Virus record (IMG/VR): IMGVR_UViG_3300017987_005500 | Reading direction: 5' to 3' (one strand) | Length of the DNA: 64,000 nucleotides | Source: a virus | Lineage: Duplodnaviria; Heunggongvirae; Uroviricota; Caudoviricetes | Shown: in pieces, positions 1,668-58,446 of the stretch | Numbering within the stretch: position 1 is the first letter of the stretch | Layout of the letters: each line of letters begins with the position of its first letter | Notes under the pieces: generated by a model | Seen by the model: the letters and a program-made list of their open reading frames with translations, nothing else | The model's database searches: none | What the model was told of the DNA's origin: nothing | Translations under genes and position numbers: made by a program

Positions 1668-2735
1668 ATGTTTCCAGTATATGTTAATGACGGAACCCAA
1701 GAAGTACCTGATGCAGATATATTTTACATAATTGGTAAAGATGGAATTTACTTAAGGAAAAAACTTGGAAGACTTGATGCAATTGTCCCGGTTGATAAAA
1801 TCTCAACACTTGGAGATGTTGAGACAATGGCGACATATGACTTACCTCCAATTCCTGCATTGCATTTTGCTAAAGTTGTCTCATTCTTTAAAGTAATATA
1901 TGAGATGCATAAGAGTGAGGCAATTGTATTGGTACATTTTGATGAGGAAAATGAAAAGTTTAAACTTCAATGTCCACATCAAAAAGTTACAAGAGCGGGA
2001 CTTGATTATATAAGAACTGTAACATTTCCTGGATATACAAAAGTATGTACTATTCATAGTCATTCGGATATGAGTGCTTTTCATTCAGGAACCGACGATA
2101 AAGATGAAGAAGACACAGATGGACTTCATATCACGGTAGGTCATTTAGACTGGGATGATGGAATGTTTGATTTATCAGTTTCTGTAGTCATCAATGGAAA
2201 AAGATTTATGGTTGAAGCGAGTGATTATATTGAGGGTCTTACACAAGTTGAAGTTGAAGAAACGAAACCTCATTATATAAGCACCTGGTTTAATTCATAT
2301 TTAAATGATGATTCAGATCCTGACGTTAAATCGGGTTATAAAATGGGTCTTCCTGATTCAAAAATGACATTCAATAAAAAATGGTTAGACTATGTGACCG
2401 TTGAGTCTGTAAGACGTGGTTATTATATGGGCAGTGTTCATTATGGAGGTGGTGGACATAGAGTCCATAGTGTTGGAAGTCCTCATTACAAAAATAACCA
2501 AAAGATAATCGAACATCATTTTGGTGCTGACAACAACGATGAAGATACACATGATTTCAATCCCTGTTTGAATTGTGTATTTTCTGAACATAAACTTCTT
2601 CAAGAAGTTGAAGATGAAGATATTGACCCTAATGATGTTGAGGGTTATGACATTGTTGGTGGAGATGAACACAATCACAGACCAATCACACATGAAAATC
2701 AATTATTAGACGGAGGTGATGAGCATGGAAATTAA
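1668..2735 (+). CDS. JAB/MPN+ metalloprotease (prokaryotic deubiquitinase-like, PRTRC protein A-like)
   Basis: E(AIVL)...IHSHSDMSAFHSGTDDKD matches the JAMM E-x(n)-HxH-x7-S-x2-D motif; RBS aggag. Confidence 0.85.
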   Translation: MFPVYVNDGTQEVPDADIFYIIGKDGIYLRKKLGRLDAIVPVDKISTLGDVETMATYDLPPIPALHFAKVVSFFKVIYEMHKSEAIVLVHFDEENEKFKLQCPHQKVTRAGLDYIRTVTFPGYTKVCTIHSHSDMSAFHSGTDDKDEEDTDGLHITVGHLDWDDGMFDLSVSVVINGKRFMVEASDYIEGLTQVEVEETKPHYISTWFNSYLNDDSDPDVKSGYKMGLPDSKMTFNKKWLDYVTVESVRRGYYMGSVHYGGGGHRVHSVGSPHYKNNQKIIEHHFGADNNDEDTHDFNPCLNCVFSEHKLLQEVEDEDIDPNDVEGYDIVGGDEHNHRPITHENQLLDGGDEHGN

Positions 2736-3417
2736 GAATATTAAGATAATTGGTCTTGGTGGAATTGGTTCAATTCTTACTGACAAAATTTGCAGATTTA
2801 TGTCATTTGGTAAATTTGCAAATGATGACTGGACAATCACTTTAATTGATGGTGATGACTACGAACCCAAAAACAGGGAAAGACAAGATTTTATATACTT
2901 AAAGAACAAAGCATTATCCAAACAAGAAGAGCTTAATGCCAAGTATGGTGTCAATACAGTTCAATATGTTGTTGAGTCTTATATTGATCAAGACAATGTA
3001 AAACAATATATTGGATCAGGCGATTTAGTCTTTATGTGTGTGGATAATCACCAATCCCGTAAATTGATATCCGACCATGCGGGAACGTTAGACGACGTTA
3101 TAATTGTTTCTGGAGGAAATGACTACATTGATGGAAATGTGCAAGTATACGGAAGAGAAAATGGAAAAGACATTTCCCCATCATTAACATCTTTTCATCC
3201 TGAAATAGACAGTCCTGATGATAAACACCCAAGCGATATGTCATGTGAAGAATTGGCAGACTCAGTTCCTCAATTATACTTTGCCAATTTGACTGCGGCA
3301 ACAGTTATGTGCTGGGTTTTATATGCTTTGATTCAGGAAAAATTTAACTTTGGAAAACCTGAAGTTTATTTTGACATCGAGATGATGTCAATTGTAGGCA
3401 AGATGAGAGCTGTTTAA
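2725..3417 (+). CDS. E1/ThiF-family ubiquitin-like activating enzyme
   Basis: IIGLGGIGS nucleotide-binding loop, DGDDYEPKNRERQ, CVDN, candidate catalytic Cys in DMSCEE; RBS ggaggt before ATG 2725. Confidence 0.9.
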   Translation: MEIKNIKIIGLGGIGSILTDKICRFMSFGKFANDDWTITLIDGDDYEPKNRERQDFIYLKNKALSKQEELNAKYGVNTVQYVVESYIDQDNVKQYIGSGDLVFMCVDNHQSRKLISDHAGTLDDVIIVSGGNDYIDGNVQVYGRENGKDISPSLTSFHPEIDSPDDKHPSDMSCEELADSVPQLYFANLTAATVMCWVLYALIQEKFNFGKPEVYFDIEMMSIVGKMRAV

Positions 3418-3449
3418 CGAAAAACTATTTAACGAAAAGGATTAAGAAA

Positions 3450-3977
3450 ATGGCATCAAAGTACACAAAAGAGAAACTGTCCAAACTTAACAATGTTGAA
3501 CTCCGAGAAATTTGCAAGAAAAAGAAAATTCCTGGAATGTCAAAGAAACGTAAAGATGTTATGGTTGACGCAATACTTCTTGCTCATGGCGGAACGAAAG
3601 CAAATGCCAAATCTTCCAAGAAAGCTAAGACTCTCGGAATTGGAAAAGATGGCGAACCAACTAAAAATGCTTCCGAAGCAAAGAAAGATGACAAACTTCA
3701 AGCTGCAACATTTACTCTTAGCAGTGTTTTGACAAAACCATCTGCAAAATATGGTGATCGAACAACCACGACAATTCGCGTATCATCCGGCGCAGCTGCA
3801 GGCGACTTCCCTGTAACAGGAAGAACAGTATCTTCTGTTAAATCATTCCTCTCTGAAGTTCTCAATATTTCCAAAATGTCTTCTCCAATCGTCAATGGAA
3901 AACAGGTTGAAGATAATTATGTAATCAAACAAGGTGATGAACTTGAGTTCTTGAAACCAGCAGGTCAGAAAGGGTAA
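3450..3977 (+). CDS. Ubiquitin-like (beta-grasp) protein with N-terminal Rho-N/HeH-like domain
   Basis: N-term LSKLNNVELREICKKKKIPGMSKKRKDVMVDAIL; C-term IVNGKQVEDNYVIKQGDELEFLKPAGQKG ends in Gly like ThiS/MoaD/PRTRC-C. Confidence 0.8.
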   Translation: MASKYTKEKLSKLNNVELREICKKKKIPGMSKKRKDVMVDAILLAHGGTKANAKSSKKAKTLGIGKDGEPTKNASEAKKDDKLQAATFTLSSVLTKPSAKYGDRTTTTIRVSSGAAAGDFPVTGRTVSSVKSFLSEVLNISKMSSPIVNGKQVEDNYVIKQGDELEFLKPAGQKG

Positions 3978-4010
3978 TTAATTTAATCAATAGACTTCTA
4001 TATATATAAT

Positions 4011-4057
4011 TATATGAGAAGGGGAATTTTTGTAATATAAAATTTCCCTCTCATATA
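4011..4057 (+). terminator. Stem-loop after the Ubl gene
   Basis: Imperfect inverted repeat tatatgagaagggg...tttccctctcatata. Confidence 0.5.
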
Positions 4058-4081
4058 AATTATTTAGGAGACTTTTTTATT

Positions 4082-4486
4082 ATGACCGTTAAAATCACAA
4101 AAGATTGTGGAGATGGAAAATTTATAGCAGAGAATGAAAAAGGACAATCATTTAAAATCTTTACAGTTGATAGAGCTAAAATTCAAAAAAGTCATGACGA
4201 CAGAGTTGCACAAGTTGCACAAGCAATAAATAAAGACGACATAGAAAGATTATTTTTAACAACTTTAGAATATTCAACTAAACCAATTGATATAGATCAT
4301 TGGAGAAAACTTGCTGAGGATTTAACTGTTTTCTTGAAAAGGTTATATACTCAAATTGGAAATCCTAATATTTTTCATCATTACATTAAAAATATTGATC
4401 CAGATTATTATGGTAAAGCTGATACATTTAGGAAGGAATGCAAATCTTTACATAAGATATGTATAGAGATTAAAAATAAACCTTGA
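4082..4486 (+). CDS. Hypothetical protein
   Basis: 134-aa ORF with RBS aggag. Confidence 0.7.
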   Translation: MTVKITKDCGDGKFIAENEKGQSFKIFTVDRAKIQKSHDDRVAQVAQAINKDDIERLFLTTLEYSTKPIDIDHWRKLAEDLTVFLKRLYTQIGNPNIFHHYIKNIDPDYYGKADTFRKECKSLHKICIEIKNKP

Positions 4487-4546
4487 CAATTTAAAGTACT
4501 AATACAATTATTATATGTAATTTAAAACGAAAGGTGGTGATAAACG

Positions 4547-4792
4547 TTGGCATATTCTGAGAAGGATGACAAACTTATAAAGTTATTTGAATTTGGAGAT
4601 GAGGATGCAGCACTACATTTTTCTATATTCTCATATGATGGAGGACCCAGGAAAATCCAAATGACAAGAATGTTTAAGAAGAAAGACAACACACAAGGTT
4701 ATGGTAAAGCAGGAAGAATGACTATCGAGGAAATGAAATATTTAAGAGATAATTTAGATGAAATCATTTCCGTAATGGAAGGAGAAAATTGA
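4547..4792 (+). CDS. PC4/YdbC-like ssDNA-binding protein
   Basis: SIFSYDGGPRKIQMTR...GKAGRMTIEEM resembles the PC4 fold signature; TTG start after aggtgg. Confidence 0.6.
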   Translation: MAYSEKDDKLIKLFEFGDEDAALHFSIFSYDGGPRKIQMTRMFKKKDNTQGYGKAGRMTIEEMKYLRDNLDEIISVMEGEN

Positions 4793-4823
4793 ACAAATTA
4801 AATTGTTAGGATAGGGGAGTAAC

Positions 4824-5696
4824 ATGCGTATTTGCGTTATTGGGTTGGGCACAATAGGTGGATTCTTTTCACAATTTATTTCTGACTTTAGAGATGTGAC
4901 TCATTTGACTATTATAGATTATGATAAAGTTGAAAAGAAAAATCTAAAAAATACTGTTTTCAAGAGAAAACATATTGGGATGTTAAAGATTGACGCAGTT
5001 GAAGAAATTATCAAAGAAACAAATGAAAAAATTACCCTATCGAAGTATGACATAGAGTTTAATGAAGACAAATTTGATTTAACGCCATATGATTATGTGG
5101 TTGATTGTAGGGACTTCACTTACAATCGAAGAAAAGTTAACATAAGACTTTATTTTTCAGGAAGACAATTAATTGTAGATTGCAGAAAGAAAGCGACCTA
5201 CGAAACTCCAATGGAAGGTTATTATACAACAAAGCTTACAAAAACAGATGTTATTGGAGCTGTTAATGCTGTTGCATTATTATTTAACAAAAAGATTGTG
5301 AATAAATTTATAGACGAAGAGATAGTATATCGTTATGAACTTGATGGATCGAATATCGAAGCATGTGAATATATTGATCAAAGATCAAAAACTCCTGATA
5401 TATTATATGAGTCCTGTGATGCGGAGACAAATAAAGGAGAAGACTCTCTAATTAATTTACATGAGAATCTCCAACCAATTTTGGATATGAATACAAAATC
5501 TGCTACGACATTATTCGTTGGACCAAAAGACTTTCCAACTATGGAAAAAGAATTTCCGGCTGGAACATTAACATCGTTTTCAGATGTTATAAAATCCCTT
5601 GTGAATGCTATTAATTTACCATTTGCATATAATTACTATGTAGTATCTTCAGGGAAAAATGTTATTGAGTTGATTCCTGATACAGGAGCTGCTTAG
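4824..5696 (+). CDS. Second ThiF/E1-like protein, possibly with a C-terminal Ubl-like domain
   Basis: VIGLGTIGG, IDYDKVEKKNL, GMLKIDA, VVDCRD; C-term GKNVIELIPDTGAA resembles the last MoaD/ThiS strand. Confidence 0.75.
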   Translation: MRICVIGLGTIGGFFSQFISDFRDVTHLTIIDYDKVEKKNLKNTVFKRKHIGMLKIDAVEEIIKETNEKITLSKYDIEFNEDKFDLTPYDYVVDCRDFTYNRRKVNIRLYFSGRQLIVDCRKKATYETPMEGYYTTKLTKTDVIGAVNAVALLFNKKIVNKFIDEEIVYRYELDGSNIEACEYIDQRSKTPDILYESCDAETNKGEDSLINLHENLQPILDMNTKSATTLFVGPKDFPTMEKEFPAGTLTSFSDVIKSLVNAINLPFAYNYYVVSSGKNVIELIPDTGAA

Positions 5697-6241: not shown

Positions 6242-6460
6242 ATGGAAGGAATCTTAGGAGAGCAAGTACGTAAAGAAATTGAAGCGATTATAGATGAAAA
6301 GATAAATGATAAAGAAAATAAACTGACAAAAGACGAACTCAATGAGATTGTCTCTTCTTTGATTCCTTCATTAGATGAACTTGTTGCTAAACAAGTAAAA
6401 CACCATATGGTTCTTATAGCACAGTATGTGATTGAACAACATGGAGGGAAATCAAATTAA
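6242..6460 (+). CDS. Hypothetical helical protein
   Basis: 72-aa ORF translationally coupled to the beta-prime gene (TAATG). Confidence 0.65.
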   Translation: MEGILGEQVRKEIEAIIDEKINDKENKLTKDELNEIVSSLIPSLDELVAKQVKHHMVLIAQYVIEQHGGKSN

Positions 6461-9156
6461 TGCCAAAACTACTGGATCAGAAAAAATTCTGTGAAGATCT
6501 TAAGGAAGTGACATCTCCTAAACCAATAATTAAGAGAAGATTTCATCCTGATGGACTCTTCTCTGAGCAAATCTTTGGTCCTATTAAGAATTACACATGT
6601 CAATGTGGTACGTATTATGGTGTTTCAAAATCTGGAGGAACTTGTCCAATATGCGAAGTTGACATTTTAAGTTCTGTGGAAAGAAGAAGAAGGTTTGCAA
6701 AAATCACTTTGCCAATTCCAGTTGTAAATCCTTTATTTTATGATTTACTTGTGAATTTAGGTGGAAGTGATTTAAAGAAAGTCATTGATGTTCTCATGAA
6801 AGATGAGAAAAGTATTTTGTATATGCATGAAGATGAATATGTTGCAACAACCGAAGCTTCTGTAATTCCAGAAGGAGCAGCAAGAATTGATCGAATTGAA
6901 GCTATTGAAGAATTAATTAAAACATTAGCTACTGGACTTTCAGCTGATGGAATTCCTGAATGGAAAATGGTACTTGATAATATTGATAAATTGCTTTTAC
7001 ATGAAATTGTAGTATTACCAGCTGATTTAAGACCTGCTTCAAGAGGAATTGATAGCGCACATCAAAAGGCAGATACCATTAATAGATATTATACGCAAAT
7101 TCTCACAAAACGAGAGATAATGCTTTCAACTATAATTGACATTAAGCAGGATAAATCAATATATTATCAATATTATACTCCTCTACAAAAAGATGTGAAT
7201 GAATTATATAATCACATCTTAGAAAAATTATCAAAGAAGGAAGGACTTATACGGGGAAATATATTAGGAAAGAGAATTGATTTCTCTGGCAGAGCAGTTA
7301 TAATTCCCGACCCGTTACTTAAACTTGATCATTGCTGTTTACCATATCTTATGGTACTTGAATTATTCAAAATTCAAATAGCAAAGAAGCTTATTGAAAA
7401 GAATAAATTCAAGATGATTAATCAAGCAGTTGACTTTATTGAAAAATGTATGGAACTCGACAGTCCCGTATTATTTGAAATTGCTAAGGAAGTGATTGAA
7501 GGTGAAGTATGTATGTTGAATAGACAACCTTCTTTACACAGACTTAGCATGACTGGATTTTATATTACAATATCTTTAGATAAAGTAATTAAAATTCACC
7601 CATTATCTTGCTCAGGATTTAATGCAGATTTTGATGGTGATCAAATGGCAGTTTATATTCCAATAACTGAAAAAGCAAAACAAGAAATCATTGAAAAATG
7701 TTTGATCACAAGAAATTTCATAAATCCATCAAATGGAAGTTTGGCACCAACACCCTCGCAAGATATAATATTAGGAATATATGCTTTAACCTCAAATGTT
7801 TTCCCCGACTTAAGAAATGAGGTTGAGTTTAAGGGCAAAATGATCACGGAAGGGAGGAAAATATTTAATGCCTGCCTTCCTGATGATTATCCGATTATTG
7901 ACGATGTAGTTATAAGCAAGAGACTTATTAGAATATTAAATGACGTAGAGTCAAAATATATATTCTCAGTTACTACAAAAGTTCTTGATCATATTAAAAG
8001 AGTTGGATTTAAATATTCAACTCTATTTGGAGCAACTATTTCCTTAGGTCAATGTAAGATTGATGGAGTTAGGAGTTTCAGAGATACGTTATACGAAAGT
8101 GATGAAGTTTCAACACAATTAGAGCAAGTTAATGGTTCTTTAGCTACAAATATGCTTAAAGAAAATTTTGCATATTCATATATGATAGAGTCAGGATCAC
8201 GAGGTTCTTGGGATCAAGCACGACAAATACTCCTTACGAGAGGGTTTATTTCAAATTTTAATTTGGAAATATTACCTGAACCAATTAAACATTCATTGAT
8301 TGAAGGGTTGACAAGAAGAGAATTCTTTCTTTCAACTTATGGATGTCGTAAAGGATTATTAGACGTTGCCTTGAATACCGGGACCTCAGGATACCTTTCT
8401 CGAAAACTGATTTTTGCATGTGTAAATGTAGAAATTGATCTTGAATTAGAAGATTGTGGTACTGAAGATTGTTTAGAAGTTTATGTTGATGATGCACCAA
8501 AAGCAATTCTTCTAATAGATAGATATTATGTAAAAGATGGTGAGTATATTAAGATAACAATGGATAATTTCAAAGATATAGTTGGAGAAGTTATCAAAAT
8601 AAGAAGTCCAATATTTTGTAAATCTCCTCAGATATGTCATAAGTGTTATGGGGATTTATGGAAAAAACTTCACAGCAGATATGTTGGAGTAATTGCTGCT
8701 CAATCATTAGGAGAATGTAATACTCAATTAGTTCTTAGGACATTTCATACGTCGGGTGTTGCAACTTCCAAAGGAGATATGCATCAAGATGATATTGTTG
8801 GGGATTTATCAAATGCCTCAAAGAGTCTTCATGATGTAAAGAATAGCAATTATAAAGATATTGTTGATAAGTTATTTAAGATTTACAATACAAATCGAAA
8901 AATTTACCATGTTCATTTTGAATGTGTAGTTTCACAGTTAATGTGGGCAGGGTATCGAAAATGGAGACTCCTTGAAAATAGAGATTCTGTGCCACCTGAG
9001 TATATCTCAGTTCAAACGGTACCGAGTAATGAGAGTTGGTTATTAGGACTCGCATTTTCAAGACCAAGGCAGCATATTGTAAGAGGATTATTCAAAGCTG
9101 GTAATTATCAAGGTGTTATGGATAAACTATTAACAGGAGAGGATATACATAGATGA
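6460..9156 (+). CDS. rpoC: DNA-directed RNA polymerase beta-prime-like subunit (phage-encoded, compact)
   Basis: GLFSEQIFGP, Zn-finger CQCG...CPIC, RIDFSGRAVI, LNRQPSLH, catalytic NADFDGD, TSGYLSRKL, AAQSLGE..TQLVLRTFH. Confidence 0.97.
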   Translation: MPKLLDQKKFCEDLKEVTSPKPIIKRRFHPDGLFSEQIFGPIKNYTCQCGTYYGVSKSGGTCPICEVDILSSVERRRRFAKITLPIPVVNPLFYDLLVNLGGSDLKKVIDVLMKDEKSILYMHEDEYVATTEASVIPEGAARIDRIEAIEELIKTLATGLSADGIPEWKMVLDNIDKLLLHEIVVLPADLRPASRGIDSAHQKADTINRYYTQILTKREIMLSTIIDIKQDKSIYYQYYTPLQKDVNELYNHILEKLSKKEGLIRGNILGKRIDFSGRAVIIPDPLLKLDHCCLPYLMVLELFKIQIAKKLIEKNKFKMINQAVDFIEKCMELDSPVLFEIAKEVIEGEVCMLNRQPSLHRLSMTGFYITISLDKVIKIHPLSCSGFNADFDGDQMAVYIPITEKAKQEIIEKCLITRNFINPSNGSLAPTPSQDIILGIYALTSNVFPDLRNEVEFKGKMITEGRKIFNACLPDDYPIIDDVVISKRLIRILNDVESKYIFSVTTKVLDHIKRVGFKYSTLFGATISLGQCKIDGVRSFRDTLYESDEVSTQLEQVNGSLATNMLKENFAYSYMIESGSRGSWDQARQILLTRGFISNFNLEILPEPIKHSLIEGLTRREFFLSTYGCRKGLLDVALNTGTSGYLSRKLIFACVNVEIDLELEDCGTEDCLEVYVDDAPKAILLIDRYYVKDGEYIKITMDNFKDIVGEVIKIRSPIFCKSPQICHKCYGDLWKKLHSRYVGVIAAQSLGECNTQLVLRTFHTSGVATSKGDMHQDDIVGDLSNASKSLHDVKNSNYKDIVDKLFKIYNTNRKIYHVHFECVVSQLMWAGYRKWRLLENRDSVPPEYISVQTVPSNESWLLGLAFSRPRQHIVRGLFKAGNYQGVMDKLLTGEDIHR

Positions 9157-12100
9157 AAGTGATTAACCCAAACTTTGTGCTTGATGAAGAAAATAATATT
9201 TTCAGGATTCGAGAAAATGAATTTGGGTCACTTGAGTCCACAATTCGGGAGATGCTAAAACCGGCCGAAGCGCTTGGATTTAGTGTCCCCGAGTTCGGGA
9301 TTCGTGATTCAAGGTTTTCGTCACGAGATCTTGCAAGAACAGTAAAACAGAAATTAGTTATTAAATTAGCTAAGGGAGAACATGTTTTAGATCTCTCAAT
9401 GGATATTCCAAAATTGATTGATGGAAATTATATCATCATAAATGGAAAACAGAAGATCCCTCAATTTCAATTATTTGATGTTCCAATTGTAACTCGTGGT
9501 AAAAATATAAAAATAAGAACAAATGTAGCAACTGTCGTAGTTGTCCCTAAGAAAGAAGAACCATATATTCATATTACTTTCTTAGGAAAAATGGTTCCTT
9601 TATCATTAATGTTATTTGCATATTTTGGAATTGAAGAAGTAAATAGAAAATTTAACTTAAGTTCTCAAACACCAGCTGACACAATTCCAACAAATATGTA
9701 TGATAAATTGATATCTGATTTAACAATGTTCTATGCTGAATCAGATGGTTATACTCAAGATGACTTTATCAAAGAAGTGGGAAGAATTTATTCTCAGTAT
9801 AACTCAAAATCAAAAGGTGAAGATGTTATGTACGCCTTAGATTTGATAATGGAAACTGATACAATATCAAAGAAACTCTTTATCACAGATACTATATTGG
9901 ATGAAGTTGTTTATGCAATTGAGCACCCTGACGATTTTGATGACACAGACTTTATCAATAAGAGAATAAGATGTTATGAATATATTCTTTTATCAAAAAT
10001 ATCCAAATATATATTTGACTTATGTATGTCAAATAGGACTGCGAGACAACCGAAATTTAATGTAAATTCAACAAAGATATTATCAGAGTGTAATGTATCT
10101 GACATTGTCCAATTTGATTTTTCAATAAATCCAGTTGAAGAACTTACAAGACTTTCAAGAACAAGTCTCATAGGTCCGGGTGGTTTTAAAAGAGAAAATG
10201 TTCCAGAGCATCTTAGAGATATTTCAAATAGTATGTTTGGCAGAGTTTGCTCAGTTGATACTCCTGATAGAGATAACTGTGGAATATTACAAAACTTAGT
10301 ACCAAATGTTAAACTTGATGAAAATTTGAAATTCACAGATGAAATATTAGAGAAGCAACCCATTTCAATTCCAGTTGCAATGGTACCTTTCTCAGAGCAT
10401 GATGATCAAACCAGACTTCAAATGGCATCATCTCAAATGAGACAATCTGTATTAACAAAAAGTTTTGATTCACCTGATGTATATTCTGGGAGTGAATGGT
10501 TATATTCAAAAGAAACCCAGTTTTTGAAAGCAGCAAAGAAAGATGGTGAAGTTGTTTATACAGATGATAATTATATAATTGTTGTCTATGATGATAATGA
10601 AGTTGATATAATCAATGTTTCTTATAGAAAGATATATGTAGGAAATATGGATTGGATGAAAATATATGTGAAGCAAGGAGATAAAGTTAAGAAAAATGAT
10701 ATTCTTGCTGAGAGTATGTTTATGAATGATGGTAAAATCAACTTTGGTCGAAAGTTGTTAACTGCTGTAATTCCTTATTTTGGATATAACTATGAGGACG
10801 GAATTGTTATATCTGATAGAATAGTTGAGGATGATGTTTTCACTTCAATGCATTATGTTGATTTATCATTTACAATTCCACCAAATAAAGTTTTATTAAG
10901 TTTATCTAATGATGGTGAATATAAACCATTACCTGAAGTTAAAGATCCTGGAGGAGGAAAACCTATAATTCATGATAGGATAGGAGTTGGAAAACCTTAT
11001 GCTATAATGAAAGATATTAATTCAGGTATACATTGTTATAGTGTATTTGATGAAGAAATTAAACTGACCGCTAAAAAACAAGTGTTAATCTCAGAGGTTA
11101 ATATTTACCCGAACACTTGGAACACTGAAATGCCTCAATATGACAAATGGGTTAAAGATAAAATTGAAAGTCAAAAGAAAAAGCAAAAAGACTTTCTTAA
11201 AATGTTAAAAGATTATATACCAAAATCTCAAATGAGTAAAATTATAAGAGAGGAAGGACTTAATAAATTCTCTCAAGTTGGAAAATATAGATATAAGAGA
11301 GAAGAGATAAATGGTATTCATATTGAGATGTATGGGATTTTTGAAAGAAAAATAAATCCTGGTGATAAGATTGCAAATCGACATGGTAATAAAGGTGTTA
11401 TTTCAAAGATAATGCCAAGAGAAAAAATGCCAAAACTTCCTGATGGGAGACACGTGGATATTTGTATCAACCCACTTGGTATTATAAGCAGGATGAATAT
11501 AGGACAAATATTTGAGTTGCATCTCTCAATGTCCGTAAATGATTTAAGACAAAAGATGTTAGAGTCATTGAAAAATGGCGGAAAAAGAGAAGACCTTATC
11601 AATTATTTCCTTGGTTATATCAAATGCATTGACAATACTGAGAATAATTGGTATACTACACAAATGGTGGAGAAGCTAAAAGATATTGAAATTGACGAAG
11701 ATTTCATCAATAACATATTTGTAATTCAACCTCCATTTGAATCAGTGACATTAGAGATGCTTGATCAGGCAATGCAATATACAAATACGGACTACGATTA
11801 TAAATTACTTGATCCAATGTCAAAAAGTGAAATATTCAATGATATCGCAGTCGGGTATATATATTTCTTTAAAATGGTCCATATTGCTGAAAACAGATTA
11901 GCAGCAAGAGGAATTGGATCTTACTCAAGAAAGACTTTGCAACCTCTTGGGGGAAGAAGGAATAAAGGTGGGCAGAGATCTGGAGAAATGGAAATGGCAT
12001 GTTTAATAGGTCATGACGCTGCCACAAACTTAAATGAATTTACGACTACGAAGTCAGACTGCATTGATAGGAAAAATAGATATATCAGAGCAGAGATTGA

Positions 12101-12209
12101 GTCTACAGAGTTTGACCCAGATAAAGATGATGATGGATGCAATATTGCTGAGTCAGTTCTCTTATTTGAATCATCTCTAATATGTGTAGGACTTGATCCA
12201 AAGGATTAA
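9153..12209 (+). CDS. rpoB: DNA-directed RNA polymerase beta-like subunit (phage-encoded)
   Basis: GRVCSVDTPD, GYNYEDG, GDKIANRHGNKGV, NPLGIISRMNIGQ, GGQRSGEME. Confidence 0.97.
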   Translation: MKVINPNFVLDEENNIFRIRENEFGSLESTIREMLKPAEALGFSVPEFGIRDSRFSSRDLARTVKQKLVIKLAKGEHVLDLSMDIPKLIDGNYIIINGKQKIPQFQLFDVPIVTRGKNIKIRTNVATVVVVPKKEEPYIHITFLGKMVPLSLMLFAYFGIEEVNRKFNLSSQTPADTIPTNMYDKLISDLTMFYAESDGYTQDDFIKEVGRIYSQYNSKSKGEDVMYALDLIMETDTISKKLFITDTILDEVVYAIEHPDDFDDTDFINKRIRCYEYILLSKISKYIFDLCMSNRTARQPKFNVNSTKILSECNVSDIVQFDFSINPVEELTRLSRTSLIGPGGFKRENVPEHLRDISNSMFGRVCSVDTPDRDNCGILQNLVPNVKLDENLKFTDEILEKQPISIPVAMVPFSEHDDQTRLQMASSQMRQSVLTKSFDSPDVYSGSEWLYSKETQFLKAAKKDGEVVYTDDNYIIVVYDDNEVDIINVSYRKIYVGNMDWMKIYVKQGDKVKKNDILAESMFMNDGKINFGRKLLTAVIPYFGYNYEDGIVISDRIVEDDVFTSMHYVDLSFTIPPNKVLLSLSNDGEYKPLPEVKDPGGGKPIIHDRIGVGKPYAIMKDINSGIHCYSVFDEEIKLTAKKQVLISEVNIYPNTWNTEMPQYDKWVKDKIESQKKKQKDFLKMLKDYIPKSQMSKIIREEGLNKFSQVGKYRYKREEINGIHIEMYGIFERKINPGDKIANRHGNKGVISKIMPREKMPKLPDGRHVDICINPLGIISRMNIGQIFELHLSMSVNDLRQKMLESLKNGGKREDLINYFLGYIKCIDNTENNWYTTQMVEKLKDIEIDEDFINNIFVIQPPFESVTLEMLDQAMQYTNTDYDYKLLDPMSKSEIFNDIAVGYIYFFKMVHIAENRLAARGIGSYSRKTLQPLGGRRNKGGQRSGEMEMACLIGHDAATNLNEFTTTKSDCIDRKNRYIRAEIESTEFDPDKDDDGCNIAESVLLFESSLICVGLDPKD

Positions 12210-12211
12210 AT

Positions 12212-12562
12212 ATGAAAAATGACGAGCTAATTATACAAGCCGAGAAAGATATACGATACATATATGAGCAGATGTTAAACATACTTAAGCGATATGAGCA
12301 AAAAGATGTTATTAATGAAATGACATTCTTTATAAATGATGATAATATTGCTTCAGGGTTTGTACGAAAAGGAAATATGACAGATACTTTATATCAACAA
12401 AATATTCAAGCAGTAGGTAAAGACTTAAAACCAAAAATAACAGTGATGGTGAGTAACGGACATATGTCTGTTGCTCACCATCCATCTAAATTAACTTCCG
12501 TTTTTGTTCAGAAAAATCCAGAAACTGATAAATCGTCGGAAGGGTGGGAGGAAATATGGTAG
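12212..12562 (+). CDS. Hypothetical protein
   Basis: 116-aa ORF tightly packed in the operon. Confidence 0.65.
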   Translation: MKNDELIIQAEKDIRYIYEQMLNILKRYEQKDVINEMTFFINDDNIASGFVRKGNMTDTLYQQNIQAVGKDLKPKITVMVSNGHMSVAHHPSKLTSVFVQKNPETDKSSEGWEEIW

Positions 12563-13431
12563 ATGAACTTCCTGATATTCAGGAAAGTAGACCAATGATC
12601 GAAATTCCAATACAACAAGTTGGAGTTGAAAATGTTGAAGTTCCATTTACTCTTCAATCCAGAGATGGATTGGCAGGACTTCATACTCTCAATGCAAATG
12701 TTTCAATGAGGACAGATATTGCTGAAGATGTCAAAGGTGTTTCAATGTCAAGATTTATTGGAACTCTTAGAGATTATTTAGGAAAACCTCTAAAACATAA
12801 AATGATTTATGACATATTAAAAGACATGAAAAAGAATATGGGAACTTCATCTGCATATATGAAATTTGATTTTAAATTTCCTAAGATAAGACAATCTCCA
12901 GCTTCTTTAAATTCATTTCCTTTATTTTATAAATGTAGTTTTGAAGGACAGGTGAGTGAAGTATATCTAGGTCCTGAATTTGTAGACAAATTTAAATTTT
13001 ATCAAGGGGTTACAGTTCAATATGCATCATATTGTCCATGTTCATCTGAATTATGTAATCATTTAAGAGACCAAGCTAAAACTGGGTTTCCTCATGCACA
13101 AAGATCATTTGCTCATGTATTGGTTGAAACTAAAGAACCTAATTATGTCTGGTTGGAAGATGTAATTGATACAGTTGAAAATTCAATTGCAACATTACCT
13201 TATCCAATTATTAAAAGACCTGATGAACAAAAGATTGCTGAAATCGCGGCAAATAATCCAATCTTTGTTGAAGATGCAATAAGACAGATAAGTCAAGCAT
13301 TAAATGACAATGATAAATATTATGATTGGATAGTGAAATGTGTTCATGAGGAAAGTATTCATACAAGTGAGGCAATTGCTATGAACTGGAAAGGAATTCT
13401 CAATGGATTCAACGGAAGCTTTTATCTCTAA
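12556..13431 (+). CDS. folE2: GTP cyclohydrolase IB (FolE2)
   Basis: LPDIQ, PIQQVGV, KGVSMSRF, CPCS, PHAQRS, KRPDE, FVEDAIR, EESIH; RBS ggagg before ATG 12556. Confidence 0.92.
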   Translation: MVDELPDIQESRPMIEIPIQQVGVENVEVPFTLQSRDGLAGLHTLNANVSMRTDIAEDVKGVSMSRFIGTLRDYLGKPLKHKMIYDILKDMKKNMGTSSAYMKFDFKFPKIRQSPASLNSFPLFYKCSFEGQVSEVYLGPEFVDKFKFYQGVTVQYASYCPCSSELCNHLRDQAKTGFPHAQRSFAHVLVETKEPNYVWLEDVIDTVENSIATLPYPIIKRPDEQKIAEIAANNPIFVEDAIRQISQALNDNDKYYDWIVKCVHEESIHTSEAIAMNWKGILNGFNGSFYL

Positions 13432-42810: not shown

Positions 42811-42857
42811 TAAAAAAAACTGAAAACGGTAAATATTTTTAATATAAAAAATATTAG

Positions 42858-42870
42858 TATATATATTAAT
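42858..42870 (+). promoter_or_regulatory. Putative early-promoter motif TATATATATTAAT upstream of the RAMP gene
   Basis: Identical core to motifs at 20936, 48497, 48955, 50065, 53908. Confidence 0.6.
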
Positions 42871-42985
42871 TATTAGTATAAGTATTATTATATAGTTTAT
42901 TTTTATTTATTTATTTTTTAAAAGTCTAAACTTATCAAAGCACATAGGTGCTAATAGGATTATTTGGACGAGAAAGGAGTCAATC

Positions 42986-43861
42986 GTGGCAAAAGCAGCA
43001 GATGAAAAGAAAACAGCAGCATCAAAGACAGCACCGAAACGTAAAACAAAAAGTGAACGTGAAAAAGAACTTGACAAAATGGTCAGGGGATTTAAACCTT
43101 ACTATGTTGATGTTACCGGTGAATACATTTCAACAATTTCGGGTTCCCGCCCTGAGGATACTGCTAAACTTATCAGTAAACCCTCAAAGACAGTCAATGA
43201 AGAGCTTCATAAAATTATGAAAGCTCAGGTTGAACTCTGCCTGCAAAAGGGAGATATTGAAGGAGCAACTGCGGCAGTAGATGCTTTCCAGAACTCTGGA
43301 AATGATTTTTCAAATCCCCTTCATGTTTTTCAACGGGATGAACAATGTGGCAGAAGACCTTTTCAAGGAGCTTATATGTTCTTTGGTGCCTTCCGAGATA
43401 CTATAAAGATGGCATATCCCAAAGACTTTAATATCTATATTAAGGTTAAAAATACATCCGGACCAAGTATAAAGCACTTAAGAAAGTCTGTGCGAGTTGC
43501 CCCGGATCATATTTTCCTCATGAAAGATGAGGATAATTACATGGAAGAAAGTGATATTGTTATTGAAAATCAGCACCCTGTTCCTCCAGACGTTAAGGGT
43601 TTCTCTCGTTTTGAGATTCTCCCAAAAGGAGCTATTGTGAAATACCGACTTGAAGTTCACAGCTGTACTCAATTCAATGCACTTGCTGATCTCGAGCTTG
43701 TTAAGAAAGTGATTATCCAAAGTGCCCTTCACGGAATTGGCTCACGACGAGCTTCCGGTTATGGCCAATGGAAAGTTAAAAAGATTGAATTCCATGAGAT
43801 GGCAGCAATGGAGGGAAGCGATGGACAAAAAGAGGATGAAGACGTCAGCAAGGCTGCGTAA
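42986..43861 (+). CDS. Stand-alone RAMP-superfamily (Cas7/Csm3-like) RNA-binding protein
   Basis: N-strand YVDVTGEYISTISG; RPFQGAYMFFGAFRD (cf. PxIPGSSxKGxxR); RFEILPKGAIVKYRL; C-terminal Gly-rich loop GIGSRRASGYGQWKV; GTG start after aaggag. Confidence 0.8.
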   Translation: MAKAADEKKTAASKTAPKRKTKSEREKELDKMVRGFKPYYVDVTGEYISTISGSRPEDTAKLISKPSKTVNEELHKIMKAQVELCLQKGDIEGATAAVDAFQNSGNDFSNPLHVFQRDEQCGRRPFQGAYMFFGAFRDTIKMAYPKDFNIYIKVKNTSGPSIKHLRKSVRVAPDHIFLMKDEDNYMEESDIVIENQHPVPPDVKGFSRFEILPKGAIVKYRLEVHSCTQFNALADLELVKKVIIQSALHGIGSRRASGYGQWKVKKIEFHEMAAMEGSDGQKEDEDVSKAA

Positions 43862-43886
43862 AACAGTAGCGAGAGGAGGAAATATT

Positions 43887-44102
43887 ATGGCAAAAGGAAT
43901 GGCCGATATGATGGTCGAAACTGCGGAGAAACTTCTTGATGGAGAGGTTCCTTTAAAGACTGGTGAAGTCGTTGCCAAAGTAGGTAATATACATCAGCTT
44001 GAACGCAAAAGAGATCATGATGCTCACGATCGTGGATTAAATGATGAAAATCTTAAAGGTTTTCAAAAGATTTGTAAACAATCTACGAAAAAGAAAAGAT
44101 AG
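43887..44102 (+). CDS. Small hypothetical protein co-transcribed with the RAMP (71 aa)
   Basis: RBS gaggagg then ATG 43887 (MAKGMADMMVETAEKLL...STKKKR). Confidence 0.7.
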   Translation: MAKGMADMMVETAEKLLDGEVPLKTGEVVAKVGNIHQLERKRDHDAHDRGLNDENLKGFQKICKQSTKKKR

Positions 44103-44112
44103 CAAATGGATA

Positions 44113-44139
44113 ATGGGGCGAGTTATGAGATCGCCCCAT
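44113..44139 (+). other. GC-rich hairpin at the 5' boundary of the repeat array
   Basis: atggggcga-9 nt-tcgccccat perfect 9-bp stem, no U-tract. Confidence 0.7.
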
Positions 44140-44184
44140 CCATGGAATATAGTTATATTTATTCCTCTTTCATGGTTTTCTTTT

Positions 44185-47100
44185 ATATTTAATAGAATGC
44201 ATAATATATCGAATCCGATCCTATGACATTCTATGTTGTATAATAGAATCCGACGCAATCACATTTTATTCACTAAAATGGGTTGAAGTTTAACCCATTT
44301 GCAATGTGAGCTATGATGCAACCGAATGAAATCATATTAAATAATCTAATAATTTAATTTAATTTGGTTAAATATTTTGTTTTGGTGTAGAATGTTATTC
44401 CATATTATTAATTTTAAATTCCTTACGTTATGATATAATTCAATTTTATTTGATTCGATTTACATATGTAATATTATTTTATGGGACAGCATCCATTTCA
44501 GTTGGATAAAATTCGATATACTATAAAACTTAATTGATTAGCACGTAATTCAATATAATTCCATCCGATCCATTTTTAAAGCAATTCGACACAGTACGAT
44601 CCGGTCGAATAAGTTGTAATTCAATCATATGCATTATTTTATTTAATGCTGTGAAGTATAATTGAATAAAATGGTATTCATAATTCAATGCGATGATAAA
44701 GAATGCGGTCCTGTCTCATTGAGTCGAATAGAATGGAATTACCTTTTAACTTAAACTTATTTCAACATGAACATATTCAATGCGATATAATGCACAATAT
44801 TATCTCATCCTATTCAGTGCGAAACTATTGAATAAGTTCCTATCCAATGAAATTCACAATTAAATAATGTATGGTAGCTTGTTTTGCTATGCGATTATAT
44901 TTCATCCATAAGTTTTACAATGCCAATAAATAAAATATGCAGTAAAATAGGCATTGAGAGCTTTTGATTTTATGTCATTTTAATCAGTTAAATCGAATGT
45001 CATTCATAAAAGAATATTATTCGTTATCGTATGGTGTGATTCAATTTAATGCTATGTTATCAGATTCACAATAATATACAATGCAAAGATTTCCTAAGAG
45101 ATCCAATATAATTCCGTAAATCGTAAGATTCTTTGCGACTCATTTTAATTCGTTATGGCGCCGTTGAATAACATAATATTCTCTATTCTATTTTACCGGT
45201 TACGTTCCTATTTGGTAAAATGGTATTTTATTTGATTCAATGATATTTACTTTGTAATACAATGCAAATATGTTCAATACTATGCGTTGCTATGCGATCC
45301 TATTCATTATACATTCAATTTAATACAATATTTTATAATTGAATAAGGTCTTATAAACTTTTTAATCTTACCCGTTCCTATTTAATACCATTTAATTCTA
45401 TAAATTATTCAACTGGTTAGTATGGGGTATTATGGTTTGTAATTACGTAAAATTGTATACATACGTAATATTGATCACTGTATAATTGGGTATAATACAA
45501 TACAATCTATATTTCACTGAATTGACTTTTAACGTATCATGCAGTATTATACAATTATGTTCAATTAAATAATGTTTTATGTATTATGATATGGAATAAA
45601 GTAATGTAGAAAGAAATCCTATCTGATAGCATTTTATACAATCTATATTTGAATTATATCCATTATAATACAGTTCAATGCGATACAATATAATTAAATT
45701 TCATTAATGATTCAATGTTACCGGTTTCGATACAATTTGTTAAATTATTATAAATAATTTGATCAGATCGAATTTAATCAAGCATTTCTTCTTAATATCT
45801 GATTGAATGCTATTCAATATATGATGGATGCGACGCCATTCCTTTGAATATTATGAAATAGTATATTATTCATTATTTAATTAGGTATAACAACTTTCAA
45901 TTTTATATTATATCATTCGATAAAATGAACGTTTTAATTGAATCTATTTCTATACGAAGCCGTTCCATGCTATTTTATGCGATGTCATAGATCTTTTAAT
46001 TAGATGCTATGCATTTCCATTGATTGGTACCGAATTCTTTACATTTCATTCCAATTCTATCGAATAAATATCTTATATATTTTATGTTAACTTTTTACTA
46101 AATTTAACTAAATAAATAAATAAGGAATATAATAAAATTAACTAAAAAATAACAAACCTTATTTAATATGTTTTCCAATGCAGTTGAGTAAAATTCTATT
46201 CATGATTAGATATAATAATTTTATGTTTAATACAATATGGTCAAATGTCTTAAGATACAATTTTATTTAATAAATGATTCGATTAATTTGAATTAGGTTC
46301 GATCCATTTACATAGTATTGTATGGAATAAAATACATAATTTGATGGGTTAGGATGTGATAGCTTATGGTATTATTGAATACAATTTTATTAATAATTTC
46401 ATATGATAAAACTCCATATTATTCTATTCTGTCGGGTTACATTCGATCAAATGTATAAAATATTCGTAATTGGATTCTTTGGGATTTATTAAGTTTCGAT
46501 CCTTTTACATCTCATTCTATTTAATAAATCTTTAATATGACTCTATTTGATTAGATGGAGTTCATTAGCACCCTTTTTAATCTAATAAAATATACTTTAT
46601 TTTATATTACTGTATGAGTTTGGGTAATATGAAATCAACAAATAAGGAATATAATAAAATTAAAATAAAAATATCAAACCTTATTTATAATACCATCCTA
46701 AAAGATGTAATTTTATAACATTCTATTTAATAAATCTCTATTAGGATTGAATCTGATATCATGCAGTTGGATAAGTTCCAATAAAATTGTGTTTTATATA
46801 TCATAGAATATTATTCATTGATATCCGTTATCTTATAATCCTGTGTCATATAATATCATAAACCATTAATACTTTATTATACTGTATTATATCTTATCCA
46901 ATTATATGAAATCTCATCCACATGGTATAAAATGTGATAGCTTATGGTATTATTGGATACAATTTCATTGATCATTGGATACTTTTGGATTCATTCCGAT
47001 GTCTTATGATCCTATTCAATGTTATTTATATTTTAATTACATCACATTGATTATGTTCCGATCCGTTAGAATTAAATTAAATGCGATTCATAAATAATAT

Positions 47101-47480
47101 GTGGTCATTTAGGATAATGTTTAAACAAATTAAATAATATATCATATACGTTTTAAACAACATTATATATTTCTGTATAAAATAAGGTCATATTTAATCC
47201 ATAATCCAATGCTATTTGATTTAATACAATAAAACACCATCATGTTCTATGGAATAATATTCTATTCACAATTTTAAATTGTATGTAATTCCATAATACG
47301 AAATCCAATTCCATAAAATACAATTCATAATTCTATAAAATTTTAATTATTATTATCCCATATTATGACATGACATCTCATCTTATTCATAATAATATTC
47401 TGTATCATTCCATGCTATTCAATATAATGATATAGCATTTACAATTTTAAAACCTATACTTTGATAATAAATGAGATTCA
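44185..47480 (+). repeat. 3.3-kb non-coding array of 5-nt-periodic units (NNATN)n in blocks delimited mostly by CA; candidate guide-RNA array
   Basis: No ORF of 60 aa or more in any frame from 44259 to 47567; e.g. 44681 taatt caatg cgatg ataaa gaatg cggtc ctgtc tcatt gagtc gaata gaatg gaatt; same register at 47328-47439. Confidence 0.85.
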
Positions 47481-47503
47481 ATGGGGTTAGATTTACCTAC
47501 CGG

Positions 47504-47542
47504 AAAAAGAGCTCCCACGATATTTATGGGAGCTCTTTTTTT
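47504..47542. terminator. Bidirectional intrinsic terminator closing the array
   Basis: aaaaagagctccca-loop-tgggagctcttttttt. Confidence 0.85.
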
Positions 47543-48496: not shown

Positions 48497-48521
48497 TATA
48501 TATATTAATTACTAGGTGGGA
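48497..48521 (+). promoter_or_regulatory. Early-type motif TATATATATTAAT plus downstream AGGTGGGA
   Basis: Repeated at 48955-48980 and 53908-53933; back-to-back with AGAACAAA (minus, 48486-48493). Confidence 0.6.
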
Positions 48522-48617
48522 CTTATTGTTTGAATAATATGTGGAGGTGTATTGTGATAACTCTATTTATGGCAAAGGTCCAATTTTAAATGTAATTTTT
48601 TAAGGAGGTGTTTAAGT

Positions 48618-48926: not shown

Positions 48927-48954
48927 GTAAAATTATATAATATAATTTGCATTG

Positions 48955-48980
48955 CTATATATATTAATTTACAGGTGGGA
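48955..48980 (+). promoter_or_regulatory. Early-type motif CTATATATATTAAT plus AGGTGGGA
   Basis: Upstream of the 49021 ORF. Confidence 0.6.
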
Positions 48981-49020
48981 ATAATTGTTTTAATTTTTTT
49001 AATGGAGGAAGTTTTACACT

Positions 49021-53907: not shown

Positions 53908-53933
53908 CTATATATATTAATTACTAGGTAGGA
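53908..53933 (+). promoter_or_regulatory. Early-type motif CTATATATATTAAT plus AGGTAGGA
   Basis: Back-to-back with AGAACAAA (minus, 53878-53885). Confidence 0.6.
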
Positions 53934-53971
53934 AGAATTGTTTTAATTTATTTATATTTTAGGAGGTAACC

Positions 53972-54252: not shown

Positions 54253-54801
54253 TTATTTTTTTGTTGCCATTAATGATGTCTTATCAGAGCTTGATTTTGA
54301 AGATCCAAAGAAGTATTGAAGGACAACTCCAAAACCAGAAGCTAATGCACCAAATAACATAAAGACAACTTCATTAGATCCTTGTGGTAAAGGTTTACTC
54401 ATTAAGTAAAGACATAAGGCAAAGAATCCAAATACAACAGTCCATGCTAAAATATAAAGATTATAATCTTTCTTGCCAGTTATCTTTACTATTTCTAATT
54501 CTCTTGCTCTAGCATCTTGAGTATTTTGGACATGGAGTTTATCATTCTCAATACCTAACTCAATAAGTCTTTCCTTATGAGCATTTTCAAGATTTTTTAA
54601 TTCATTTAATTGATCAGGAGTTGCTCCAATAAGAGCTTTCTCAACTGAGATTGGATCATTATCACAACCTAAAACACTTGAAAGTAAAGATCCTGCAACT
54701 CCACCCGCTCCAGGAACAATGGCATTACCCAACACTGGAGCAACCTTTCCAACAATTCCTTTTACTGAATTCCAAACATCTTTAGTATCCATGTTATTCA
54801 C
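54253..54801 (-). CDS. Holin-like membrane protein (3TM holin family)
   Basis: VAPVLG...GGVAG, NTQDARARE, two C-terminal TM helices, QYFFGSS. Confidence 0.7.
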   Translation of the reverse strand: MNNMDTKDVWNSVKGIVGKVAPVLGNAIVPGAGGVAGSLLSSVLGCDNDPISVEKALIGATPDQLNELKNLENAHKERLIELGIENDKLHVQNTQDARARELEIVKITGKKDYNLYILAWTVVFGFFALCLYLMSKPLPQGSNEVVFMLFGALASGFGVVLQYFFGSSKSSSDKTSLMATKK

Positions 54802-56024
54802 CTTTCATTTTTTTGCTTATTAAGAGCTTCATCGAGTTGATCTTTTGTAATATATCCTTCTTCAATTAAATAAGCACCCAATTTTTTATTGGTTTGTTTA
54901 TTATCTTCAATAGTTTGTCTTAATGATTTTTCTACTCTACCTCTTTCTACCCAAGCACTTAAAATGTTAGCTGCCATTTTTAAAGCATTTATCTCGGGGT
55001 CTTGCCATATTCTTTTTTGTCTACATTCATCAAATCCAATAAAACCAACATATTTTTTATCTATAAAAATAGGGACTGCTAAAGTTGATTTGACATTTTG
55101 AGAGTTTAATAAATTGTGTTCAACTTTAGGAAAATCTTCAGTATGTCCATGTATAATATTTTTCGATTTTAATATTTTAACCCATCGACTAAAATTAATA
55201 GACATATCGAAACTCTGCATTTTTGGATTATCAATTTGAGGTTCAATTGTCCCATCAACCCATTCATGTTTATAATATACAATATCTTGTGAAATTACAT
55301 TAAAAATATATACTCTACTTACTTGAGCAGCTTTACCAATTTCAGTAATCATTTCATCAATTCTATGACCATTTGTTGGTTTAAAGTCTCTTAACATTTT
55401 TTCGGTTACTTTATTTATAGACGTTATGACAGAGTCCCTTATCTTCATTGTCATTTCAGCTTGAACTCTCTCAGTTATATCATAGAGTAATACAACATGA
55501 CCTGTTATATAATTATCATCATTCATAACTGGAGAATATGACATTGTGAAATGTCTGCCATCATCAATTTTTATACTCTGGAAACCTTCAGTGCAACCTG
55601 CATTATCATCTCGAACAGGGCAATAGTTCATGCAATTGCAAAATTTATTTCCTAATATATCTTTACAATCTCTACCGATTATAAACTTTTCATTGATTCC
55701 TATGTATTCAATAAAGGATTTATTAACTCTTGTAACTTTGTATTCAGGATCTAATAAAATTATAAAGCTTGGAATTGCATCAAATGTTGCCTTCCATATA
55801 TCTCTTTCTTGAGCTAAGGCAATCTGTGTAACTTCAGAATCTTCAGTTAAAGAACCTATAAGATCAAGAGTTGTTGATATTTTATCAACTCGACTCATTG
55901 CTTTTTTCTCAAGTTCTTTTAAATGATTAGTTACATCATCATAAGTCGTTAGAGTCTCTGGAGGTTTCTGAACTTCAACTTCGACTTTTTTGTCACCATT
56001 AAAATTCCATAATTTAAAATTCAT
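54798..56024 (-). CDS. PAS-GAF sensor protein with C-terminal MshEN-like (c-di-GMP-binding) motif, no output domain
   Basis: WKATFDAIP...IIGRDC...YDITERVQAE (PAS); VSRVYIF...LAVPIF..GFIGFDEC..RIW (GAF); KLGAYLIEEGYITKDQLDEALNKQ. Confidence 0.8.
   Translation of the reverse strand: MNFKLWNFNGDKKVEVEVQKPPETLTTYDDVTNHLKELEKKAMSRVDKISTTLDLIGSLTEDSEVTQIALAQERDIWKATFDAIPSFIILLDPEYKVTRVNKSFIEYIGINEKFIIGRDCKDILGNKFCNCMNYCPVRDDNAGCTEGFQSIKIDDGRHFTMSYSPVMNDDNYITGHVVLLYDITERVQAEMTMKIRDSVITSINKVTEKMLRDFKPTNGHRIDEMITEIGKAAQVSRVYIFNVISQDIVYYKHEWVDGTIEPQIDNPKMQSFDMSINFSRWVKILKSKNIIHGHTEDFPKVEHNLLNSQNVKSTLAVPIFIDKKYVGFIGFDECRQKRIWQDPEINALKMAANILSAWVERGRVEKSLRQTIEDNKQTNKKLGAYLIEEGYITKDQLDEALNKQKNER

Positions 56025-57504: not shown

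Positions 57505-58446
<942 letters not shown>

What the first reader, a model, noticed from the sequence alone, without database searches (positions are those of the whole stretch)
44582..47441. Array grammar: blocks of 9-13 pentamers punctuated by a 2-nt CA spacer
Seen: the 5-nt register repeatedly jumps by exactly 2 nt, usually at CA. CA lies at 44632, 44679, 44793, 44855, 44907, 45005, 45067, 45305, 47200, 47267, 47326 and 47388 (variants ac 44741, cc 45114, ct 45181, ta 47440). Clean blocks: 44634-44678 (9 pentamers), 44681-44740 (12), 44743-44792 (10), 44795-44854 (12), 44857-44906 (10), 45007-45066 (12), 47202-47266 (13), 47328-47387 (12), 47390-47439 (10). The same punctuation at both ends of the array argues for selected structure rather than a decayed satellite. 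Inference: each ~50-65-nt block is one processed guide, CA marks a cleavage or boundary site, and the array holds on the order of 50 guides. Some blocks are degenerate with 1-nt slips.
Basis: partly seen in the sequence, partly recalled or inferred. Interest (0 to 1): 0.88.

Follow-up and report, generated by a model that had tools for sequence, protein, structure and literature searches.

The report
Phage guide array aimed at defence
A large uncultured phage carries a variant of the recently described VIPR RNA-guided silencers: about 50 short guides, each a reverse copy of a target gene with two fixed letters inserted after every three bases and separated by a two-letter comma, and the two guides we could decode point at a restriction-modification gene and at a small gene found beside anti-phage defence genes.

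Summary
The grammar is real: 50 blocks in 44578-47440 (47 have 9-16 pentamers), and 31 of 50 register jumps are +2. The conserved comma is AY (27/31), not CA (12/31). Units read xAT-nn. The array follows a lone Cas7-like RAMP gene and a conserved 71-aa gene; the whole cassette is absent from a 96-99% identical virus. Blocks are guides: two of eight tested decode, antisense and block end to block end, to conserved motifs. One is type I hsdM (22/22 nt); the other is a small defence-associated gene, phrog_12550 (26/26 nt). Unlike published VIPR (GGY/NN, skipped base not encoded), the first base of each unit carries the complement of the target's wobble base (stop codons depleted, 33 vs 60, family-wide). 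Each guide is therefore a contiguous target copy with AT inserted every three bases, which implies templated acquisition or three-base pairing. Eleven related loci share the design with lineage-specific commas. Cleavage at the comma, the transcribed strand and silencing are inferred, not shown. This scan has already noted comma-punctuated VIPR arrays, an hsdM-aimed guide and the three-free-bases hint on other phages. Verdict: new variant of VIPR.

The parts
42852..42915 (+). AT-rich leader at the left edge of the cassette; probable promoter. It shares a 12-nt AT core with repeated intergenic motifs at 48497 and 48957 (inference)
   Evidence: sequence; cassette boundary at 42813
42986..43861 (+). 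Stand-alone RAMP (Cas7/Csm3-like fold, helical insert after strand 1, G-loop); Vipr-like effector, 291 aa
   Evidence: PF03787 weak, E 0.009; model pLDDT 88; Z 13 to Cmr/Csm3/gRAMP; 45 homologs
43887..44102 (+). 71-aa three-helix accessory gene (vap-like)
   Evidence: homologs in 10 of 11 related loci; no family hit; model
44106..44143 (+). GC-rich hairpin between the accessory gene and the array
   Evidence: -20.3 kcal/mol, z -4.1
44146..44576 (+). Degenerate 5' part of the pentamer array, about 7-8 blocks with irregular junctions
44578..47440 (+). Guide array: 50 blocks of xAT-nn units, joined mostly by a 2-nt AY insert
44578..44632 (+). 11-unit guide antisense to codons about 18-28 of type I R-M hsdM
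45184..45248 (+). 13-unit guide antisense to the 3' end of a 56-aa defence-associated gene (phrog_12550)
46338..46392 (+). Guide whose decoded peptide equals that of 46921-46970 but with synonymous codons
47501..47543 (.). Strong hairpin with A-run before and T-run after: bidirectional terminator closing the cassette
   Evidence: -24.7 kcal/mol, z -7.5; the empty site in G001 has a different hairpin here

Best explanation
A VIPR-like RNA-guided silencing cassette of a large phage. SHOWN (sequence level): each block is the reverse complement of a 27-48-nt stretch of a protein-coding gene, phased to codons, with a fixed dinucleotide (AT; less often TT, GT, AC) inserted between the wobble complement and the other two bases of each codon. 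An extra AY separates one target copy from the next. INFERRED: one + strand transcript runs through RAMP, accessory gene and array to the terminator at 47501. RAMP protomers coat it, one per pentamer, gripping the R-Y dinucleotide. The extra AY breaks the 5-nt register, so a filament cannot continue across it; this sets guide length and leaves a bare AU site that a nuclease may or may not cut. Guides pair with the coding strand of target genes, stringently at the two nn bases and weakly or not at all at the wobble base, and repress them as SUSP1 VIPR does. At least some targets are anti-phage defence or defence-island genes, so the array works as a programmable counter-defence library; others are probably genes of rival elements.
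For: Array statistics. nn composition fits antisense codon positions 1-2 (r 0.86 window, 0.84 homologs; sense 0.38 and 0.11). Block 44578: inner 9 units queried, and 15 of 19 hits extend over both unqueried end units, all in frame in hsdM. Block 45184: 8 of 8 hits in one family, all extending by two unqueried units; the full 26-nt pattern occurs in 27 metagenome contigs, all that family, and none continues into the nn of the neighbouring blocks. That gene lies beside a Bub ubiquitin-like operon, WYL regulators or a restriction nuclease in 4 of 5 plasmids viewed. Wobble base encoded: interior stop codons 7 vs 15.6 (window, p 0.001) and 26 vs 43.5 (homologs, p 0.0003), while the wrong-unit control gives 54 vs 59.9. 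Both guides translate to the natural peptides at all 10 informative positions (P 0.13 x 0.009). RAMP fold, conserved accessory gene, the same array type at 11 loci, cassette absent from a near-identical virus.
Against: Six of eight guides tested gave no credible target (exact-match scans only). The matched genes are family members from unrelated organisms, not the true host's alleles; the host is unknown. The hsdM match alone is only moderately improbable (roughly 0.01 per chance family). Profile similarity to the SUSP1 Vipr family is limited to the G-loop (probability 5.6%). AT is palindromic, so the motif does not fix the strand. There are no RNA or functional data. About 12 of 47 blocks fit sense better than antisense.
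Confidence: 0.75

Rival explanations
1. Same system, but the comma is a true cleavage signal read by a nuclease (the RAMP, the 71-aa protein or a host RNase such as RNase E). This is a sub-hypothesis compatible with the best explanation.
For: Staggered vrRNA arrays are described as yielding individual vrRNAs (10.64898/2026.04.26.720920, fig. S18 legend). The AU at the junction resembles the RNase E preference (own knowledge). Commas are conserved within each locus.
Against: The comma differs between loci (AT in L012, an 8-nt motif in L013, (C)AA in L016, longer spacers in L011), and here it equals the ordinary fixed dinucleotide. No Cas6-like gene and no junction hairpins were seen.
Confidence: 0.4
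2. All three free bases pair with the target: contiguous recognition with a 2-nt guide bulge per 3 bp, a code different from the published skip rule.
For: Wobble base encoded. The G-loop Asp that reads G1 in SUSP1 Vipr (D177) is Gly/Ala/Ser here, while the Arg that holds Y3 is invariant.
Against: Guides are phased so that this base falls on the wobble position, which only makes sense if it tolerates mismatch; copying during acquisition explains the signal equally well.
Confidence: 0.3
3. The guides act on mRNA (antisense RNA targeting, as type III Cas7 does) rather than on DNA.
For: Strong antisense bias, 35 of 47 blocks and most homolog arrays; best PDB folds are type III/VII Cas7; SUSP1 Vipr can bind RNA.
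Against: Vipr structures were not in the fold library. A Vipr-like helical insert with a conserved Lys is present. No conserved Asp at the place where Csm3 has its catalytic one (position from own knowledge). Coding-strand bias also fits transcriptional roadblocks.
Confidence: 0.15
4. The array is transcribed from the minus strand, so guides read AT-x-nn in the sense of the target.
For: AT is palindromic; in SUSP1 the third triplet base lies opposite the skipped base; the hairpin at 44106 could end a minus-strand RNA.
Against: Genes and arrays are co-oriented at all 12 loci, upstream arrays included. L013 reads xGT on the + strand, matching the published YNNNG. The terminator at 47501 blocks read-through from the right.
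Confidence: 0.12
5. Decayed satellite, origin or chance periodicity.
For: AT-rich and degenerate; some segments are duplicated.
Against: Codon-structured variable bases, two exact decodes, linkage to the RAMP at 12 loci.
Confidence: 0.01

Closest known systems
VIPR systems (Vipr + vap + vrRNA), type II of Escherichia phage SUSP1, PDB 36pp; bioRxiv 10.64898/2026.04.26.720920 and .720927
   Same: Phage-borne lone RAMP plus small accessory gene; guides of 9-16 pentamers; two variable bases per unit match the target in a 3-nt step, with the odd base on the codon wobble; no CRISPR repeats.
   Different: Fixed part is xAT, not GGY; the first base is free and encodes the skipped base; no structured 3' tail; about 50-58 guides instead of 4; the 291-aa RAMP aligns to the SUSP1 family only at the G-loop; decoded targets are defence-type genes rather than a satellite recombinase.
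VIPR variants with YNNNG/NNNGG repeats and staggered arrays (same paper, methods and fig. S18); non-canonical WGT/NN, TGH/NN, GAC/NN, CAC/NN arrays (10.64898/2026.10.21.760802)
   Same: Degenerate first triplet position; tail-less abutting guides with a register shift.
   Different: Purine is mostly A (74%); the shift is +2 by an inserted AY rather than a 1-nt overlap; the passages I read do not decode the freed base or report host-defence targets.
Class 1 CRISPR Cas7 (Csm3/Cmr4, type VII, IV-B)
   Same: RAMP fold with G-loop (Z 11-13).
   Different: No repeat-spacer array and no cas genes in the locus; 5-nt rather than 6-nt period; discontinuous guide.

Membership tests
VIPR | Stand-alone RAMP-fold protein with G-loop | tested here: met
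VIPR | Sequence kinship with described Vipr proteins | tested here: inconclusive
   A1 vs SUSP1-family profile: 55 columns, probability 5.6%, G-loop only; other VIPR types were not available
VIPR | Minimal locus (vipr + vap) in a virus, no CRISPR array | tested here: met
VIPR | Guides of 9-16 pentamer repeats | tested here: met
   47 of 50 blocks
VIPR (canonical) | Constant GGY triplet | tested here: not met
   position 2 is A 74%, G 10%; position 1 is free. The paper admits related consensus such as YNNNG, which homolog L013 approaches
VIPR | NN pairs match the target in 3-nt steps, odd base at the wobble | tested here: met
   here the odd base is also written in the guide
VIPR type II | Structured invariant 3' tail on each guide | tested here: not met
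   blocks abut with 1-4 nt between them; no Rfam hit
VIPR staggered arrays | Guides overlap by 1 nt | tested here: inconclusive
   dominant shift is +2; the figure itself is not held
VIPR | Guide RNA expressed, processed and bound by Vipr; target repression | not testable with these tools
Class 1 CRISPR-Cas | Repeat-spacer array and cas operon | tested here: not met

The most novel reading that the evidence does not exclude
A distinct Vipr-like lineage writes new guides by templated copying of target genes, inserting a fixed dinucleotide after every third base and an extra one between targets. This would be an adaptive acquisition mechanism without Cas1-Cas2. The phage uses the resulting 50-guide library to silence bacterial defence operons, possibly reading the target contiguously (AT/NNN, no skip).
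Probability: 0.35. Interest if true: 0.9.

Novelty: new variant of a known kind. Interest (0 to 1): 0.7.

Why it matters
The VIPR papers I read do not say how guides are made or how tail-less arrays are divided. Here the supposedly skipped base is preserved in the guide, so every guide converts to an exact 27-48-nt DNA sequence. That makes acquisition and host identity directly testable and argues that guides are copied from targets. The decoded targets suggest RNA-programmed counter-defence, which would widen VIPR biology beyond virus-versus-virus conflict. A guide format with only two fixed bases and a 2-nt comma would also be a very compact multiplex array.

Tried and rejected
CA as the signal: rejected. 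Self-targets in the window, in G001-G003 and in homolog loci, with skips 0-2: none above shuffles. Exact-match scans negative or chance-level for blocks 44682, 44796, 45251, 45647, 46276 and 47203; these chance hits did not extend to the unqueried units and serve as the null. Dipeptide-neighbour signal: none, low power. Dinucleotide residuals fit all codon frames and do not discriminate. Host identification from FolE2 and PAS/GAF genes: uninformative. No homolog of the RAMP in cultured phages. RAMP-accessory complex prediction: no verdict. The accessory model was too weak to search. Vipr chains were not in the fold libraries, so their absence means nothing.

Full report
OBSERVATION. Five-base periodicity is found only at 44001-47500, and the autocorrelation shifts by 2 after about 45 nt and by 4 after about 100 nt. 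An HMM trained without priors gives one strongly A and one strongly T column and three weak ones, so the unit is xAT-nn. A segmentation blind to the inserted bases yields 50 blocks in 44578-47440, 47 of them with 9-16 units, and 31 of 50 jumps are +2. The insert is AT or AC in 27 of 31, and 44 of all 50 inserts start with A. CA occurs at 12 of 31 and its C is not enriched (p 0.13). The A-Y lies in neither flanking register, so it is not an artefact of where the jump is placed. The array extends, more degenerate, back to about 44146.

LOCUS. Upstream on the same strand are a 291-aa gene and a 71-aa gene. The first folds (pLDDT 88) like Cas7/Csm3/Cmr RAMPs, Z about 13, and has 45 homologs, none in cultured phages. 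The neighbours are tail sheath, baseplate, terminase and RNA polymerase genes. A hairpin precedes the array and a bidirectional terminator closes it. A virus record 96-99% identical on both flanks lacks all of 42813-47535, so this is an accessory cassette. All 11 homologous loci retrieved carry pentamer arrays with R-T at positions 2-3, cut into blocks of similar length by locus-specific short junctions. L012 independently uses AT (+2), and L013 uses a constant 8-nt junction. Ten of the 11 have the small gene.

WHAT THE BLOCKS SAY. The nn pairs have the composition of codon positions 1-2 read antisense (r 0.86 here, 0.84 in homologs), as the VIPR skip rule with wobble phasing predicts. I scanned eight blocks by exact pattern, leaving end units unqueried as an internal test. 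Block 44578 hit the N-terminal motif of type I hsdM: 15 of 19 hits extended over both end units, 22/22 nt. Block 45184 hit one family in 8 of 8 cases, with extension. Its full 26-nt pattern occurs in 27 metagenome contigs, all in that gene, and none continues into the nn of the adjacent blocks. The chance expectation for that pattern is below 0.001 per 1e12 positions. The gene is phrog_12550. In five plasmids viewed it sits after a Bub-type operon, opposite WYL regulators (twice), near a restriction nuclease, or at a terminase moron site; Bub and WYL are linked to anti-phage immunity in PMC11601596. Six blocks gave nothing or chance hits that did not extend. So a block is one guide, first and last units included. 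The matched genes are family members, not the true targets.

THE THIRD BASE. Deleting positions 2-3 of each unit and reverse-complementing turns both guides into the exact natural peptides, resolving all 10 ambiguous codons correctly (P about 0.001). One guide is 36/39 identical to a natural gene (10 of 13 wobble bases, L084). Across interior units, stop codons number 7 vs 15.6 expected here and 26 vs 43.5 in homologs; pairing each nn with the next unit's x removes the effect (54 vs 59.9). End units show no such depletion (7 vs 6.4). Two blocks (46338, 46921) give the same peptide with synonymous codons, including two different Leu codons, which looks like two copies from two alleles. A guide is thus AY-N-(AT-NNN)k-AT-NN: a contiguous reverse copy of whole codons with a fixed dinucleotide after every third base, and the comma is one extra such dinucleotide between targets. 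Either x pairs, or it is a relic of templated copying. Wobble phasing favours weak or no reading of x. In the weak G-loop alignment, the SUSP1 Asp that reads G1 is Gly/Ala/Ser in all 39 proteins and the Arg holding Y3 is invariant, which fits a free first position; this mapping is inference.

MECHANISM. Inferred by analogy with SUSP1 VIPR: one + strand transcript, one protomer per pentamer, the register break limiting each filament to one guide, cleavage at the bare AU possible but unshown, pairing to the coding strand, and repression. The strand is favoured, not proven: co-orientation at 12 loci, xGT in L013, and the terminator.

COMPARISON. It works like VIPR. It fails the canonical GGY and tail criteria, and kinship to described Vipr proteins is inconclusive, so I file it as a VIPR-like variant near the published YNNNG and staggered forms. 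Other agents in this scan noted similar commas, an hsdM-aimed guide and a three-free-bases hint on other phages; I did not check those and do not count them as support. I found the hsdM match and the wobble encoding before reading the corresponding notes. What this locus adds is a controlled test of the third base, two end-to-end decodes, a defence-associated second target, an empty site in a sister virus, and a family of 12 loci.

VERDICT. Observation partly confirmed (AY, not CA); interpretation partly supported; new variant of a known kind; interest 0.7.

Noticed in passing
window 42813-47535 vs G001:7189-7122: A 96-99% identical virus record lacks the whole 4.7-kb cassette; only about 67 bp with another terminator hairpin lie there. 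No target-site duplication or mobility gene was seen.
   Followed up: partly
window 48497-48535, 48950-49001, 53909-53949; core also near 42858: Repeated intergenic motif, probably a phage promoter; the 422 bp between the first two copies are missing in G001.
   Followed up: no
window 46110-46165 / 46632-46687 and 46513-46562 / 46719-46768: Duplicated array segments (89% and 78%) that span junctions: recombination inside the array.
   Followed up: partly
window 44796-44855 and 45070-45119: Blocks decode to a TGT/DpdA-like motif (DSGGFQ) and a methyltransferase motif-I-like peptide. The first gave no exact target; the second was not scanned. The phage itself encodes FolE2 (12544-13431).
   Followed up: partly
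L006, L012, L016 arrays: Homolog guides decode to recognisable motifs (from my own knowledge, not tool-checked): helicase Walker A, patatin/CapV-like DGG motif, NPPF methyltransferase motif, HExxH peptidase, tyrosine-recombinase RHSF.
   Followed up: no
L013:7780-8470: Homolog array with xGT units and a constant 8-nt junction; L011 has longer spacers between blocks.
   Followed up: partly
window 1668-5696 and 6460-12209: Prok-JAB and ThiF genes, and two RNA polymerase beta-like genes, consistent with a jumbo phage.
   Followed up: no
window 54798-56024: PAS/GAF sensor-like gene in the virion module.
   Followed up: partly
L001-L003: Three other assemblies are identical to the window across the parts of the array they cover (L001 covers all of it); no guide turnover was seen.
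   Followed up: yes
window 57509-57552: Fifteen-copy trinucleotide repeat in an intergenic gap.
   Followed up: no
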